Of a DNA stretch of 40,156 nucleotides, positions 13,680 to 32,415 are shown one piece after another. The stretch comes from Shigella phage ESh23: the sequence record ON528733. One strand, given 5' to 3'. A program made the position numbers and the translations under genes. Every line of letters starts with the position of its first letter. Position 1 is the first letter of the stretch. The notes below the pieces were generated by a model that worked only from the letters and a program-made list of their open reading frames with translations, did no database searches and was not told the origin of the DNA.

Positions 13680-14186
13680 ATGGAACGTAACACTAACGCA
13701 TACTATGACCTGCTGGCTGCAACCGTTGAGCTGTTCAACGAGCGTATTCAGCAAGACGAAATAGCTGAAGGTGATGACTACAGCGATGCGCTGCATGAAG
13801 TCGTAGACGGTCAGGTTCCGCACTATTACAGCGAGATTTTCACGGTGATGGCTGCTGATGGTATTGACCACGAGTTCGAAGACTCTGGGCTGATGCCTGA
13901 TACCAAGGACGTAACGCGTATACTGCAAGCTCGCATCTATGAGGCACTGTATAACGATGTGTACAATAGCTCGGATGTAGTCTGGTTCGAGGCTGAAGAG
14001 AGCGACGAGGAGGACGAATACTGGGTGGTTGACGCTAAGACAGGTGCATTCATTGAGCAAGCTGTATCACTTGAGGTCGCTACTGCATGTGCCAAGGACC
14101 ACTATGCGATAGGTCGCCGCCTGAAAGTCGAAGACATCAACGACAACGTAGTGTTCGACCCTGCGGCTGCTGAGGACTGCGAGTGA
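13680..14186 (+). CDS. ocr: Ocr (T7 gp0.3-like anti-restriction DNA mimic) with ~50 aa C-terminal extension, 168 aa
   Basis: Core VPHYYSEIFTVMAADGIDHEFEDSGLMPDTKDVTRILQARIYE is near-identical to recalled T7 Ocr; acidic; first gene after the early promoters. Confidence 0.9.
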   Translation: MERNTNAYYDLLAATVELFNERIQQDEIAEGDDYSDALHEVVDGQVPHYYSEIFTVMAADGIDHEFEDSGLMPDTKDVTRILQARIYEALYNDVYNSSDVVWFEAEESDEEDEYWVVDAKTGAFIEQAVSLEVATACAKDHYAIGRRLKVEDINDNVVFDPAAAEDCE

Positions 14187-22287: not shown

Positions 22288-22369
22288 ATGGTGCGAGATG
22301 ATGTTCGAGAGGACAGGTAACACTGACTACCTCGAAATGTATAACATCTGGAAAGGGAGAGGGCTATGA
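22274..22369 (+). CDS. small ORF, 31 aa (T7 gene 1.8 position)
   Basis: Fills the gap between flanking genes; overlapping start/stop with neighbours. Confidence 0.3.
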
Positions 22370-22530
22370 GTCAGGACGAGAAGAAGTACATCGTGGAGCT
22401 TGAGGGTCGCGTTCAGTCCTTTGAGGTCCCGGTATACGCCAAGTCTCTGGACGAGGCGACCCTAAAGTCTCAGGAGTACGAAGATGCTGGTTTCGTGGTA
22501 GGCCGCATCCGACCTGAGCTGCACGACTAA
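22366..22530 (+). CDS. inhibitor of host RNA polymerase (T7 gp2-like), 54 aa
   Basis: [14 protein letters not shown] matches recalled T7 gp2 (SFEVPIYAETLDEA). Confidence 0.75.
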
Positions 22531-26477: not shown

Positions 26478-26478
<1 letters not shown>

Positions 26479-27011
26479 TGAGAAACTTAATCAACGGTAA
26501 GACCCTGACCGAGGTGCAGCTTGAACTTGGCCCGAAGGAGGGACTTGAGGTCTTCACCTCCCGCTGCACTGGTCGGACTTTGGGTCGGGCACTACTGTTC
26601 ATATCTACAGCTATGGCCCAAGGGTCCATCGACATCGGGCCGCTACGCTCTAACTTGGGAGACCAAGAGATTGATAGCGTGAAGTATCAAATCACACAGC
26701 GTCTAGACCAGATGGGCCTCGTTGGGTTCAAGCTGGAAGGAGACGTTCTGTCCTATTATCCATTTGAGGAGTACCAAGATGTTAAAGAGGTTGTGCGAGA
26801 AGTTACAGTCCAAGTATCACCTTTCGCTGGCGAAGTGGTATCACCACGAAGCTACAGTGTTGAGCAACATCCTGAAGGACCAGCGGTTCCAGTCGGTAGC
26901 ATGGAACAAAGCTACCCAGAAGTGCGCGTATCATCTGGCGAGAGTCCTTTAGTAGAACCGATGGAGGTCATAGAGCCGTTGGTCCCAGACATGACTCCGC
27001 CTAAGGCTTAA
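26478..27011 (+). CDS. hypothetical protein, 177 aa (T7 gene 4.3-4.7 position), GTG start
   Basis: GGAGGA SD 7 nt upstream of GTG; ends at the promoter before the DNA polymerase gene. Confidence 0.6.
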
Positions 27012-29253: not shown

Positions 29254-29537
29254 TGGCTATTACTAAACGTATTCGTGTGAGTTTTGACCTGAGGATGGTT
29301 GTTAGCTCAAAGGAAGAAGAGACCATGTGTTGTCAGCTCGCTGAGATGACTAAAGCCTACGCCGAGGGTGAGAAGCTGGATGGACTTCAGTTGGCTCTGG
29401 TCAAAACAGCAATCGAGTCAGGTCCTGAGTCTGCCCTTGAAATTGCCATCAAGAAGACCATCAAGGAGGAGCTGGTAGACGCCTTTGGTGATGACCAGTT
29501 CGGAGTATCCAACCTGCGATTCGAGGTCAAGCAATGA
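29253..29537 (+). CDS. hypothetical protein, 94 aa, possibly T7 gp5.5-like
   Basis: ATG overlaps gp5 stop; AAGGAG SD; N-terminus MAITKRIRVSFD resembles my recollection of gp5.5; uncertain. Confidence 0.55.
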   Translation: MAITKRIRVSFDLRMVVSSKEEETMCCQLAEMTKAYAEGEKLDGLQLALVKTAIESGPESALEIAIKKTIKEELVDAFGDDQFGVSNLRFEVKQ

Positions 29538-29743
29538 GTGAATACTTACGGGTCCTAGCGGCCCTTAAGTCCTGCCCGAAGACCTTCCAGTCAAACTACG
29601 TGCGCAACAATGCGGCACTGGTGGCTGAGGCTGCGAGTCGTGGACATCTAAGCTGCCTGTCTATGGACGGGCGTAACAACGGTGCGTGGGAGATTACCGC
29701 TGCTGGCACCAAGTTCCTGAACCAACACGGAGGCTGTCTATGA
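29534..29743 (+). CDS. T7 gp5.7-like protein (inhibitor of sigma-S RNAP in T7), 69 aa
   Basis: MSEYLRVLAALKSCPKTFQSNYVRNNAALVAEAASRGHLSCL...GAWEITAAGTKFL nearly collinear with recalled T7 gp5.7. Confidence 0.85.
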   Translation: MSEYLRVLAALKSCPKTFQSNYVRNNAALVAEAASRGHLSCLSMDGRNNGAWEITAAGTKFLNQHGGCL

Positions 29744-30189
29744 AGATACCTGAAAGTCTGAAAGAGCTGGTCCTTGAAATGGGTGAGTGCGAGAAGGAGC
29801 ACCGCAAGTACGCGGAGTTCTACGCATCTTGGTCGTACACCCTGTCAGAGAAGGACGTTGAGAACTACGCCGAGTCTCCTTCTGAGGCTTATGAATGGCG
29901 TCCGTTCATCGGCCTGACCATCGTAGCCAGCGGTATGTGGAATGACAGCTATGGCTCAGAGGTAAATGATTGGGGAGTGTATCGCCCGGTTGAGAAGGAG
30001 ACCGAAATTTCTTCAAGCTTCTGGAGCCTAATGTCCCACCTCAACTCAGAGGACAACGACATGGCCCATGAGTTCGCCCACAAATGGCTGAAGCCTGAGG
30101 TGACTCTAGAGCGTATTGAGGAGCCGAAAGTTTCCTTGATGCCAGCTACAGTTGCTATGGCTACAGGAGGTCTGGACGATGGGTTCTGA
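29740..30189 (+). CDS. acidic hypothetical protein, 149 aa, at the position of T7 gene 5.9
   Basis: ATG overlaps gp5.7 stop; Glu/Asp-rich; not similar to recalled gp5.9. Confidence 0.6.
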   Translation: MKIPESLKELVLEMGECEKEHRKYAEFYASWSYTLSEKDVENYAESPSEAYEWRPFIGLTIVASGMWNDSYGSEVNDWGVYRPVEKETEISSSFWSLMSHLNSEDNDMAHEFAHKWLKPEVTLERIEEPKVSLMPATVAMATGGLDDGF

Positions 30190-31048
30190 GAAGAAGATTG
30201 CTCTGGTGCTTGATGGCGACTATCTGGTCTTCTCCTCTATGGCTGCGGCTGAAGATGAGACTGACTGGGGCGACGACATCTGGACCATTATCTGCGACCA
30301 CGAGAAAGCCCGTCGTATCCTTGAGAACACCATCGCTGAAATCGTCAAGAAGCGCAAGGCGTGGAAAGACGCTAAGATTGTGATGTGCTTCACCGATGAT
30401 GCTAACTGGCGTAAGGACGTTCTGCCTACCTATAAGGCCAACCGTAAAGGTTCTCGCAAGCCTGTTGGTTACAAGAAGTTCGTAGCTGAAGTGATGGCTG
30501 ACCCACGGTTCAACAGCTTCCTGAAGCCAACGCTTGAGGGCGATGACTGTATGGGAATCATTGGTACACGACCTCAGATTGTCGGATGTGACCATGCTGT
30601 GCTGGTGTCCTGTGATAAGGACTTCAAGACTATCCCGAACTGTGAGTTCTTCTGGTTAACCACTGGTGAAATCCTGAGCCACACGACTGCCGAGGCAGAT
30701 TACTGGCACATGGAGCAGACCATCAAGGGTGACATGACGGATGGCTACGGCGGTATTCCGGGGTACGGTGAGGACACTACCCGTGCTTTCCTTGACGAGC
30801 CGTACTACTTCGTACAAGAGACCCGCGAGCTGAAGACTGGCAAGAACAAAGGTCAGCTCAAGGTCGAGTGGAAGAAGTATCCGAAGCGCGAAGACCAGAC
30901 GCTGTGGGACTGCATGGTGACTCTGGCTGCTAAAGCCGGGATGACCGAACAGGAACTACTGGTCCAAGCTCAGGTAGCTCGCATCTGTCGCGCATCTGAC
31001 TACGACCCTAAGTCCAAGGAGGTCATTCTGTGGACACCCTCCATGTAG
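30179..31048 (+). CDS. 5'-3' exonuclease (T7 gp6-like), 289 aa
   Basis: VLDGDYLVF, CDHEKARRILE, YKANRK, KPVGY, CDKDFKTIPNC, TIKGDMTDGYGGIPG, LWDC; GGAGG SD before ATG 30179. Confidence 0.95.
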   Translation: MGSEKKIALVLDGDYLVFSSMAAAEDETDWGDDIWTIICDHEKARRILENTIAEIVKKRKAWKDAKIVMCFTDDANWRKDVLPTYKANRKGSRKPVGYKKFVAEVMADPRFNSFLKPTLEGDDCMGIIGTRPQIVGCDHAVLVSCDKDFKTIPNCEFFWLTTGEILSHTTAEADYWHMEQTIKGDMTDGYGGIPGYGEDTTRAFLDEPYYFVQETRELKTGKNKGQLKVEWKKYPKREDQTLWDCMVTLAAKAGMTEQELLVQAQVARICRASDYDPKSKEVILWTPSM

Positions 31049-31538: not shown

Positions 31539-31763
31539 ATGTGTTTCAGTCCGAAGATTAGCACTCCGAAGCCTTCTACCGCTGCACCTGAGCCTGCTCC
31601 TCTGAGTGAGGAAGTAGCCAGTGTCGACATCGGGGCAGAGGCTGACGCAGACACCAAGGAGACCAAAGGTATTTCAGACCTGAAAGTCAAGAAGGAGTCT
31701 GCACCTAAAGATAAGTCGTCCGTTAGCCGCGCTATGCGAGCTTCCGGCGTAAACATGGGGTAA
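31539..31763 (+). CDS. small virion protein (T7 gp6.7-like), 74 aa
   Basis: N-terminus MCFSPKISTPK...EPAPL matches recalled T7 gp6.7 (MCFSPKIKTPK...EPAPL); SD AAGGAGGG. Confidence 0.75.
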   Translation: MCFSPKISTPKPSTAAPEPAPLSEEVASVDIGAEADADTKETKGISDLKVKKESAPKDKSSVSRAMRASGVNMG

Positions 31764-31766
31764 GAC

Positions 31767-32171
31767 ATGCTTCCATATCTCAACTCACGCGATGGTCGCC
31801 TCATGGCTGCGTATCGCCTCTGGGAAGACGGACAGTCTAACTTCAAGTCGTTTGAGGACTTCAAGGCTCATACTTACCGTATGGCTGATGAGTTCGATGG
31901 CGAAGAGTATACAATCTACGATGTCTCAGGTTCACCAGTAGCGTACGTGTACATGCTGGCTACCGCATCTTGGCACCGACCGACTCCCGGTCTTGACCTT
32001 TCCATCCTCGCTATTCGTAGTGACTCGCAGTCCTCCCGCAAGGTTCTTGAGACTGTCAGACACATCATAGACGAAGAATGTAAGCGATGGGGTCTGGGCT
32101 GGTATTCCCGTATCAAGCATGTTTCTGGGTCGGTAGACATCGTTACAACCAAGGAGATTAACCGTGGGTAA
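31767..32171 (+). CDS. T7 gp7-like virion/host-range protein, 134 aa
   Basis: Synteny and size (T7 gp7 133 aa). Confidence 0.6.
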   Translation: MLPYLNSRDGRLMAAYRLWEDGQSNFKSFEDFKAHTYRMADEFDGEEYTIYDVSGSPVAYVYMLATASWHRPTPGLDLSILAIRSDSQSSRKVLETVRHIIDEECKRWGLGWYSRIKHVSGSVDIVTTKEINRG

Positions 32172-32415
32172 ATCCATTAGTAAAGCCTTTAAGAAAGTTG
32201 TCGGTGGCGCTCTGAATACCGTTGGTCTGGGACCCTCTGCTCCTCAGCCTAAAGCTCAGGACGCTCAGGTAGCTGCTGCTCCGGTAGAAGTTCCTCAGGA
32301 CCAAGTGACTGACGTTGAGACTGATGTGACCGAGACCGATAAGAAGAAGGTCAAGTCAACTGGTAAGCGCGGACTTCAGGTCTCTCGCACATCAGGTGGC
32401 GGTATCTCAATTTAA
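32164..32415 (+). CDS. tail/adsorption protein (T7 gp7.3-like), 83 aa, GTG start
   Basis: VEVPQ and C-terminal SxxRxSGGGIxI match recalled T7 gp7.3. Confidence 0.75.
   Translation: MGKSISKAFKKVVGGALNTVGLGPSAPQPKAQDAQVAAAPVEVPQDQVTDVETDVTETDKKKVKSTGKRGLQVSRTSGGGISI

What the first reader, a model, noticed from the sequence alone, without database searches (positions are those of the whole stretch)
29740..30189. Acidic 149-aa protein occupies the slot of the RecBCD inhibitor gp5.9
Between gp5.7 and the exonuclease gene T7 encodes the 52-aa acidic DNA mimic gp5.9. This genome instead has an unrelated acidic protein about three times larger (MKIPESLKELVLEMGECEKEHRKYAEFYASWSYTLSEKDVENYAESPSE...). 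Same locus and same charge character but a different sequence suggests a functionally analogous, possibly novel DNA mimic or nuclease inhibitor.
Basis: partly seen in the sequence, partly recalled or inferred. Interest (0 to 1): 0.55.

Follow-up and report, generated by a model that had tools for sequence, protein, structure and literature searches.

The report
Mosaic acidic protein in gp5.9 slot
A real, conserved, acidic 149-residue phage gene sits where T7 keeps its RecBCD inhibitor gp5.9; its main domain is of unknown function and unmatched fold, but a 29-residue piece of it is homologous to the N-terminal module of long-form gp5.9-family proteins.

Summary
Observation confirmed. Window 29740-30189 (+) encodes a 149-aa protein (pI 4.5, net charge -16) with a GGAGG ribosome-binding site, wedged between gp5.7 and the gene 6 exonuclease of a K1F-like (Kayfunavirus) genome. 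It is under purifying selection (dN/dS 0.08-0.25). The genome has no gp5.9-family gene.

Interpretation partly supported. Position alone is weak evidence. The 5.7/6 slot is a cassette hot spot: empty in K1F and in 23 of 83 surveyed loci, and otherwise filled by at least six unrelated families, one of them basic.

The protein has three parts:
- A core (res 1-88) belonging to PHROG 4382, a family seen only in phages. It has no Pfam, NCBIfam or PDB sequence match and no PDB fold match. It is also a standard gene between nrdD and nrdG in Felix O1-like phages.
- Module A (res 89-118). This is homologous to the N-terminal module of long-form gp5.9-family proteins (hhalign 96.9%, E 1.7e-10), which fill the same slot in sister phages.
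- A disordered tail (res 119-149) shared with other slot cassettes.

One metagenomic contig has a core gene directly followed by a gp5.9-family gene.

The function is untested. A host-factor-binding inhibitor linked to the gp5.9 pathway is the best guess. Neither DNA mimicry nor RecBCD targeting is shown.

The parts
29534..29743 (+). gp5.7 gene, the left flank of the cassette slot. Its stop overlaps the ATG of the slot gene.
   Evidence: PHROG 1334 E 7e-39. 77% identical to T7 gp5.7 and 100% to K1F gp5.7. DNA identity to sister Kayfunaviruses with other cassettes stops at 29743 or 29744.
29729..29733 (+). GGAGG ribosome-binding site of the slot gene, 6 nt before the ATG
   Evidence: Read directly from the sequence.
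29740..30189 (+). The 149-aa acidic ORF (the finding), stop codon included
   Evidence: PHROG 4382 E 2.6e-46. dN/dS 0.08-0.25.
29740..30003 (+). Core domain, residues 1-88: helix, beta hairpin, two helices, beta hairpin
   Evidence: AF2 model pLDDT 82-93 over this stretch. This is the part conserved in all family members, including the 112-aa Grimontviridae-type forms.
29791..29823 (+). Conserved motif 1, residues 18-28: E-K-E-H-R-K-x-S-x-F-Y at the first beta-hairpin turn
   Evidence: Column conservation over 67 diverse members.
29932..29961 (+). Conserved motif 2, residues 65-74: G-x-W-x-D-x-x-G-x-E at the second beta-hairpin turn
   Evidence: G72 is invariant and G65 is 97% conserved.
30004..30093 (+). 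Module A, residues 89-118 (helix-loop-helix, F..LMSHLNSEDN.MA.EF). Homologous to the N-terminal module of long-form gp5.9-family proteins.
   Evidence: hhalign 96.9%, E 1.7e-10 over residues 90-118. PHROG 6163 E 3.2e-4. 13 of 19 residues identical to Cronobacter phage GW1 protein. A module-A profile retrieves mostly PF25708 proteins. Same secondary structure in both AF2 models.
30094..30186 (+). C-terminal tail, residues 119-149. One beta strand, then a disordered stretch with the LMPATVAMATGGLDDGF motif.
   Evidence: pLDDT below 50 for residues 130-149. The same tail occurs on the SH3-like and NPW slot proteins and in phage Jarilo. Its last codons encode the gene 6 RBS.
30165..30170 (+). AGGAGG ribosome-binding site of gene 6, embedded in the tail codons (T-G-G)
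   Evidence: Sequence. DNA identity to sister phages resumes between 30154 and 30187.
30179..31048 (+). Gene 6 5'-3' exonuclease, the right flank. Overlaps the slot gene by 11 nt.
   Evidence: PHROG 107 E 2e-79; PF02739.

Best explanation
Shown:
- This is an expressed-looking accessory gene carried on a swappable cassette in the hypervariable gp5.7/gene 6 slot of T7-like phages.
- The protein has three parts: an acidic alpha/beta core of a phage-only family (PHROG 4382) with no match among solved structures; a helix-loop-helix module A shared with long-form gp5.9-family proteins; and a disordered tail shared with other cassettes of this slot.

Inferred:
- It is a middle-gene host-takeover or counter-defence protein that works by stoichiometric binding, not catalysis.
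- The conserved hairpin patch (EKEHRK.S.FY and G.W.D..G.E) on an otherwise acidic surface engages a partner.
- Module A supplies the same, still unknown, contact or assembly function that it supplies to long gp5.9-family proteins.
- That places the protein in the same pathway as gp5.9, meaning host DNA-end processing and the defences wired to it, without it being a gp5.9 homologue or a demonstrated DNA mimic.
For: - Real gene under purifying selection.
- Sharp cassette boundaries at 29743 and 30154-30187 between otherwise 87-95% identical genomes.
- Among 25 Kayfunavirus-type loci the slot is empty in 8, holds this gene in 6, SH3-like+tail in 6, SH3-like in 2, NPW+tail in 2 and module A+gp5.9 domain in 1.
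- Module A homology: hhalign 96.9%, E 1.7e-10. 99 of 119 further module-A proteins carry the gp5.9 domain.
- P0081 has module A before the core, so the two modules travel together in either order.
- A core gene lies adjacent to a PF25708 gene in L118.
- Distribution appears complementary in the surveys made. No surveyed T7-like slot holds both. In Ounavirinae, phages of Escherichia, Salmonella, Shigella and Citrobacter (Felix O1-like, Mooglevirus, Suspvirus) have the core, while Erwinia Kolesnikvirus and Arno162 have the long gp5.9. Moogle, scanned whole, has no gp5.9 domain.
- Acidity is conserved family-wide.
- The flanking genes gp5.5 and gp5.7 are known host-factor inhibitors (record annotations).
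- No catalytic family matches in Pfam, NCBIfam, PADLOC or PDB.
- No relative was found in 185,579 bacterial and archaeal species genomes, searched with two peptide patterns.
Against: - No partner is identified.
- The 0 of 83 co-occurrence in the slot is not statistically significant: about 0.8 co-occurrences are expected by chance, and the loci are not independent.
- The L118 adjacency is a single 1.7-kb contig, and coexistence argues against simple redundancy.
- Module A is only about 29 residues, and T7 gp5.9, the only biochemically tested family member I know of, lacks it.
- A conserved His-Arg-Lys/Trp-Asp patch could equally be a ligand pocket or an active site.
- The Felix O1-type context (nrdD|X|nrdG, near prs and NAPRTase) points to nucleotide metabolism rather than DNA ends.
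- No model coordinates were available, so the surface charge pattern is unknown.
Confidence: 0.4

Rival explanations
1. One reading: a direct functional analogue of gp5.9. The acidic surface mimics duplex DNA and blocks the DNA-end binding site of RecBCD.
For: - Same slot, and no gp5.9-family gene in the genome.
- Net charge -16, with acidity conserved across the family.
- Module A is shared with PF25708 proteins.
- DNA mimics have very diverse folds, so an unmatched fold is no objection (PMC9836394).
Against: - The slot holds many unrelated cassettes and is often empty, in K1F itself for example, so slot identity carries little weight.
- Charge density (-0.107 per residue) is well below gp5.9 (-0.154) and this phage's own Ocr (-0.19).
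- The best-conserved residues are basic and aromatic, not acidic.
- The predicted fold is a compact alpha/beta domain, not an elongated helical rod.
- The core coexists with a gp5.9-family gene in L118.
Confidence: 0.15
2. Unrelated cargo. The slot is simply a recombination-permissive junction. The core is a ligand-binding or enzymatic domain, for example a sponge for a nucleotide-based immune signal or an accessory factor of nucleotide or NAD metabolism. Module A would be a generic structural cap.
For: - Two conserved hairpin motifs rich in His, Arg, Lys, Tyr, Phe, Trp and Asp look like a pocket.
- The family is a fixed gene between nrdD and nrdG in Felix O1-like phages (353 records), sits next to prs+NAPRTase in a 121-kb phage, and lies between PolA and Grx-RNR in another.
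- Another slot cassette (NPW) weakly matches a PHROG annotated 'ribonucleotide reductase'.
- Size and acidity resemble known sponge proteins (my own knowledge of Tad1, Tad2 and Acb2).
Against: - No sequence or fold similarity to any solved sponge, phosphodiesterase or nucleotide-binding protein.
- T7-like hosts of the gene encode no Nrd or NAD pathway.
- The tie between module A and the gp5.9 family is left unexplained.
Confidence: 0.3
3. It serves the phage's own replication or recombination machinery, for example as a modulator of the gene 6 exonuclease or the DNA polymerase. The shared tail would act as a docking peptide.
For: - Always translationally coupled to gene 6 in T7-like phages of five or more genera.
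- The disordered tail with a conserved short motif recurs on three unrelated slot proteins.
- In other phages the gene lies in the replication gene region.
Against: - K1F and 8 of 25 Kayfunavirus loci manage without any slot gene.
- Przondovirus, Berlinvirus and Ounavirinae versions lack the tail.
- The tail's most conserved codons coincide with the gene 6 RBS, so the conservation may act at RNA level.
Confidence: 0.12

Closest known systems
T7 gp5.9 (Pfam PF25708, PHROG 9014), RecBCD inhibitor and DNA mimic
   Same: Same genomic slot (5.7|X|6) with translational coupling to gene 6. Small and acidic. Non-essential accessory middle gene.
   Different: No PF25708 domain (no Pfam hit at E <= 1; hhalign probability 0.2% against a gp5.9-family alignment). 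149 aa against 52 aa. Predicted alpha/beta globule against a dimeric parallel coiled coil. Lower charge density. T7 gp5.9 lacks module A.
Long-form gp5.9-family proteins (PHROG 6163: Cronobacter phage GW1, Klebsiella phage 175002, Erwinia phage Panisse, Pectobacterium phage Arno162)
   Same: They share module A (F..LMSHLN.E[ED]N.MA.EF; 13-14 of 19 identical; hhalign 96.9%), predicted as the same helix-loop-helix. In T7-like phages they occupy the same slot, in one case in the same genus (GW1). Acidic.
   Different: In them module A is N-terminal and followed by the PF25708 'GVDNW' domain. Here it is C-terminal to an unrelated 88-residue core, and the PF25708 domain is absent.
PHROG 4382, the Felix O1-like 'hypothetical protein' between nrdD and nrdG
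   Same: True homologues of the core (E 2.6e-46 to the PHROG; tblastn E 1e-8 to 1e-11 to Moogle and Sf13), with the same two hairpin motifs and the same acidity.
   Different: 130 aa, with a degenerate module A and no tail. Different genomic neighbourhood (anaerobic ribonucleotide reductase genes) in roughly 88-kb myoviruses.
Ocr (gp0.3, PF08684)
   Same: An acidic phage protein of the DNA-mimic class, present in this same genome at 13680-14186.
   Different: No sequence or fold relation. Ocr is far more acidic (net -32 over 168 aa) and is an early gene.

Membership tests
PHROG 4382 (uncharacterised phage protein family) | Significant full-length match to the family profile | tested here: met
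   E 2.6e-46; residues 1-130 against profile positions 6-129 of 130. BFVD fold hits are all family members.
gp5.9 family (Pfam PF25708) | Match to the PF25708 domain model | tested here: not met
   No PF25708 hit at E <= 1, whereas T7 gp5.9, the L109, GW1 and Klebsiella 53-aa proteins and the L118 neighbour all pass the gathering score. hhalign of the core family against a gp5.9 alignment gives probability 0.2%.
gp5.9 family (Pfam PF25708) | Elongated all-helical (coiled-coil) architecture | tested here: not met
   The AF2 monomer model is mixed alpha/beta with about five strands. The long-form gp5.9 protein of phage GW1 is predicted all-helical. The oligomeric state was not modelled.
gp5.9 family (Pfam PF25708) | Location between gene 5.7 and gene 6 of a T7-like phage | tested here: met
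gp5.9 family (Pfam PF25708) | Binds and inhibits RecBCD | not testable with these tools
   Needs biochemistry or complex prediction.
Long-form gp5.9 proteins (PHROG 6163) | N-terminal module A followed by the PF25708 domain | tested here: inconclusive
   Module A is present (PHROG 6163 E 3.2e-4 to profile positions 2-28; hhalign 96.9%). It sits at residues 90-118, and the PF25708 part is missing. The homology is partial and does not amount to membership.
DNA-mimic proteins (functional class) | Strong net negative charge | tested here: met
   pI 4.51, net -16, conserved in 95 family members. The charge is moderate compared with gp5.9 and Ocr.
DNA-mimic proteins (functional class) | Surface carboxylates spaced like a DNA phosphate backbone | not testable with these tools
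   Model coordinates are not exposed. Only E13, E18, E20, D69 and E74 are conserved acidic columns.
DNA-mimic proteins (functional class) | Competes with DNA for a DNA-binding protein | not testable with these tools
   Experimental.
Ocr (PF08684) | Match to the Ocr domain | tested here: not met
   No hit for this ORF. The genome's Ocr is a different ORF.

The most novel reading that the evidence does not exclude
The core plus module A is a new, structurally unprecedented inhibitor of the same host hub that gp5.9 attacks (RecBCD and/or MukBEF). Module A would be a portable docking element that lets phages exchange 'warheads' (PF25708 domain, PHROG 4382 core, or nothing) in one hot-spot slot. 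The driver would be host guard systems such as retron Ec48, Gabija and OLD, which detect RecBCD inhibition.
Probability: 0.15. Interest if true: 0.75.

Novelty: new variant of a known kind. Interest (0 to 1): 0.5.

Why it matters
If the core plus module A proves to act on RecBCD or another DNA-end hub, it would add a third, unrelated fold to the anti-RecBCD repertoire after Gam and gp5.9. It would also identify module A as a reusable docking element.

Even without that, the 5.7/6 junction is shown to be a compact, precisely bounded cassette exchange site. It has at least six protein families, plus empty states, among phages that are otherwise about 90% identical. That makes it a practical place to mine and to engineer counter-defence genes in therapeutic T7-like phages.

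The family is also a fixed, unannotated gene in several hundred Felix O1-like and T7-like phage genomes.

Tried and rejected
- Sequence searches gave nothing beyond PHROG 4382 and a weak PHROG 6163 hit: Pfam (best SLT_L, E 0.11), NCBIfam (E 0.01, far below cut-off), PADLOC (E 0.025), and PDB by phmmer and by profile (E >= 0.5).
- An apparent resemblance between the core's 'EVNDWGVY' and the gp5.9-family 'GVDNWEGY' was tested and rejected (blastp E 0.13; hhalign probability 0.2%).
- A first single-linkage clustering wrongly merged all slot proteins into one cluster. Shared modules caused this, and module-level labelling resolved it.
- I considered that the C-terminal acidic tail ending in Phe might mimic the gp2.5 and gp4 tails that bind T7 DNA polymerase. 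I dropped the idea because those codons are the gene 6 RBS and start region, and the terminal residue varies (F, C or E).
- A scan of 185,579 bacterial and archaeal genomes with two family peptide patterns found no relative.
- Mutual exclusivity with gp5.9 within the slot (0 of 83 loci) is not statistically meaningful.
- The literature search found no paper on this family or on cassette exchange at this slot.

Full report
**What the window is.** The 40,156-bp window is a complete, circularly permuted genome of a K1F-like phage (Autographiviridae, Studiervirinae, Kayfunavirus). The slot gene (29740-30189) is 98.9% identical in DNA to Enterobacter phages EcL30g and IME278, where it is annotated 'hypothetical protein' between 'HNS binding protein'/hypothetical (gp5.5 and gp5.7) and 'exonuclease'.

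- Window 29740-30189 (+) is an ATG-initiated ORF of 149 codons. GGAGG lies 6 nt upstream. The ATG overlaps the gp5.7 stop, and the last 11 nt overlap the gene 6 start.
- The neighbours are confirmed as gp5.5 (PHROG 1452), gp5.7 (PHROG 1334; 77% identical to T7 gp5.7) and the gp6 exonuclease (PHROG 107, PF02739).
- The protein has pI 4.51 and net charge -16. That is the second-highest negative charge density among 49 ORFs of the genome, though less extreme than T7 gp5.9 or this phage's own Ocr.
- It is a real gene. 54 phage records carry it at 80-99% nucleotide identity, and pairwise dN/dS is 0.08-0.25.
- Neither T7 gp5.9 (tblastn best E 0.35) nor an HMM of the wider gp5.9 family (best E 2.7) finds anything in the window.

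**The slot is a cassette hot spot, so position says little.**
- In K1F, the type species, gene 5.7 is followed immediately by gene 6.
- I fetched 80 IMG/VR loci by their gp5.7 and added T7, K1F and the window. The distance from gp5.7 to gene 6 ranges from -6 to about 580 nt.
- Module-level labelling of the slot ORFs gave these counts:

| Slot content | Loci (of 83) |
|---|---|
| Empty | 23 |
| SH3-like protein (PHROG 2251), with or without the tail | 22 |
| Basic 58-aa protein (PHROG 12303), alone or combined | 15 |
| The family studied here | 10 |
| 'NPW' protein (PHROG 18166) | 8 |
| gp5.9-family proteins | 7 |

- The sample is biased towards Kayfunavirus and Przondovirus because loci were ranked by gp5.7 similarity to the window.
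- Among the 25 loci whose gp5.7 is at least 90% identical to the window's, the states are: empty 8, this gene 6, SH3-like+tail 6, SH3-like 2, NPW+tail 2, and module A+gp5.9 domain 1.
- DNA identity between the window and Kayfunaviruses carrying other cassettes stops at 29743/29744 and resumes between 30154 and 30187. The exchange unit is therefore bounded by the two translational-coupling junctions.

**What the protein is made of.**
- Homologues are few and come only from phages. There are 46 clusters among 1.84 billion representative proteins, all 68-163 aa apart from one very short fragment and one 1,124-aa repeat protein that is probably spurious. None turned up in 185,579 bacterial and archaeal species genomes scanned with two family peptide patterns.
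- The family is PHROG 4382, function unknown.
- It occupies the same slot in Przondovirus, in a Berlinvirus, in Jarilovirus, in Providencia phage PSTCR2 and in metagenomic T7-like contigs.
- It is also a standard gene between nrdD and nrdG in Felix O1-like, Mooglevirus and Suspvirus myoviruses. There are 353 records with a tblastn match to the Moogle protein; these also include T7-like phages.
- Shorter 112-aa forms occur in roughly 90-kb phages such as Proteus phage J3S.
- An AlphaFold2 model built on 38 sequences has mean pLDDT 80 and pTM 0.64. Its order is: helix, beta hairpin, two helices, long beta hairpin, helix-loop-helix, strand. Residues 130-149 are disordered.
- Across 67 diverse members the conserved columns are E13, E18-K-E-H-R-K-x-S-x-F-Y28, G58 and G65-x-W-x-D-x-x-G-x-E74. 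These fall in two hairpin regions.
- All 95 members examined are acidic (pI 4.1-5.6).

**The link to gp5.9.**
- Pfam PF25708 ('Phage T7 gp5.9 RecBCD inhibitor') unites T7 gp5.9 with the more common 'GVDNW' proteins of the same slot.
- The core of the window protein is unrelated to that domain (hhalign probability 0.2%).
- Residues 90-118 (ISSSFWSLMSHLNSEDNDMAHEFAHKWLK) are homologous to the N-terminal module of long-form family members. Evidence: PHROG 6163 E 3.2e-4; 13 of 19 identical to the 66-aa slot protein of the Kayfunavirus Cronobacter phage GW1; the family HMM hits the Erwinia Panisse and Klebsiella 175002 proteins at E 1e-4 and 7e-4; profile-profile probability 96.9%, E 1.7e-10 over 29 columns.
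- A profile of this module alone retrieves about 200 proteins from 5.8 billion, at E down to 2e-13 among proteins outside this family. Of the 119 new sequences held, 99 carry the gp5.9 domain. The rest have other tails or are 39-46-aa miniproteins.
- AF2 predicts the same helix-loop-helix in both contexts.
- In P0081 the module precedes the core.
- In contig L118 a core-family gene is followed directly by a PF25708 gene.
- The window and GW1 share no DNA similarity across the module, so the sharing is old rather than a recent crossover.

**Distribution.**
- No surveyed slot contains both the core and a gp5.9-family gene. With 10 and 7 occurrences in 83 non-independent loci, that is not significant.
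- In Ounavirinae the core is found in phages of Escherichia, Salmonella, Shigella and Citrobacter. The long gp5.9 is found in Erwinia (Kolesnikvirus) and Arno162-type phages.
- Erwinia is absent from the ten commonest organism names in both core searches. Moogle, scanned in six frames, has no gp5.9 domain and no separate module A.
- This pattern is suggestive of alternative use, but it is not a census.

**The tail.**
- Residues 119-149 end in LMPATVAMATGGLDDGF.
- Similar tails close the SH3-like and NPW cassettes in Kayfunaviruses and some Klebsiella phages, and the core-family protein of Jarilo.
- Some synonymous variation accompanies conserved residues (V/L-A-M-A). The most conserved codons (A-T-G-G-L-D-D) are the AGGAGG RBS and start region of gene 6.
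- Whether the constraint acts on the peptide or on the RNA is therefore unresolved.

**Mechanism.**
- Shown: a real accessory gene on a swappable cassette, with a three-part composition, conserved acidity and a conserved hairpin patch.
- Inferred: a stoichiometric binder of a host factor, functionally tied to the gp5.9 pathway through module A. This is my best explanation, at confidence about 0.4.
- The slot neighbours gp5.5 and gp5.7 are annotated as host-factor inhibitors. T7 gp5.9 blocks RecBCD by DNA mimicry as a dimeric coiled coil (PMC9836394) and also inhibits MukBEF (PMC7617805).
- Host systems that sense RecBCD inhibition, namely retron Ec48 (10.1101/2020.06.21.156273) and Gabija (PMC12407980), offer a plausible reason why this slot turns over. 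That step is inference.
- Rivals: a direct DNA-mimic RecBCD inhibitor (0.15); a ligand-binding or metabolic protein unrelated to gp5.9 (0.3); a modulator of the phage's own replication or recombination proteins (0.12).

**Novelty and score.**
- The family is catalogued but uncharacterised, and I found no paper on it.
- To my knowledge, three things are not described: the partial homology to long-form gp5.9 proteins, the module network (core, module A, PF25708 domain, tail) and the precise cassette behaviour of the slot.
- I rate it a new variant of a known kind, namely a phage accessory host-takeover protein of the gp5.9 locus, with interest 0.5. There is a solid testable lead but no functional evidence.

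Noticed in passing
window 13680-14186 (+): A 168-aa, extremely acidic ORF (pI 4.05, net -32) is an Ocr DNA mimic (PF08684, E 7.6e-33 over residues 7-98). It carries a roughly 70-residue C-terminal extension with no match to the Pfam Ocr model.
   Followed up: partly
window 30094-30186; loci L046, L042, L059, L111, L003: The tail L(M/L)PATVAMA..GG recurs on three unrelated N-terminal domains occupying the same slot, and in phage Jarilo. Its last codons are the gene 6 RBS, so it is unresolved whether the peptide or the RNA is conserved.
   Followed up: partly
83 loci L037-L116 plus T7, K1F and the window; slot = window 29744-30178: The gp5.7/gene 6 junction is a precisely bounded cassette exchange site. 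It has at least six unrelated protein families plus empty states among phages that are otherwise about 90% identical.
   Followed up: yes
P0134, P0146, P0156, P0163, P0173: Module A also exists as free-standing 39-46-aa miniproteins, some on roughly 40-45-kb phage contigs. This suggests it is a self-sufficient unit.
   Followed up: no
L028 3377-4324; L118 3-245: An HNH endonuclease ORF lies directly upstream of core-family genes in roughly 50-90-kb phages. In L028 it runs in frame into the core ORF (315 aa with no intervening stop). This could be a homing-endonuclease association or a fusion.
   Followed up: no
L042/L045 slot ORFs (PHROG 18166); Moogle L004 2968-3360; L119, L120: Two different slot cassettes have relatives in the nrd and nucleotide-metabolism regions of large virulent phages. 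The NPW protein weakly hits a PHROG annotated 'ribonucleotide reductase'. The core family lies between nrdD and nrdG, or next to prs+NAPRTase. Together these hint at traffic of small genes between those regions and the T7-like slot.
   Followed up: partly
window 22366-22530 (+); 26478-27011 (+); 31767-32171 (+): A gp2-type host RNA polymerase inhibitor (PF16857) is present. An acidic ORF after the primase-helicase gene, and a 134-aa ORF between the 31539-31763 ORF and the 32164-32415 ORF, have no Pfam match.
   Followed up: no
L002 3371-3547 and 15 surveyed loci: A basic 58-aa protein (PHROG 12303) shares the slot in Klebsiella Przondoviruses. It occurs alone or next to the core family or a gp5.9-family gene, so the slot can hold two cassettes in tandem.
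   Followed up: partly
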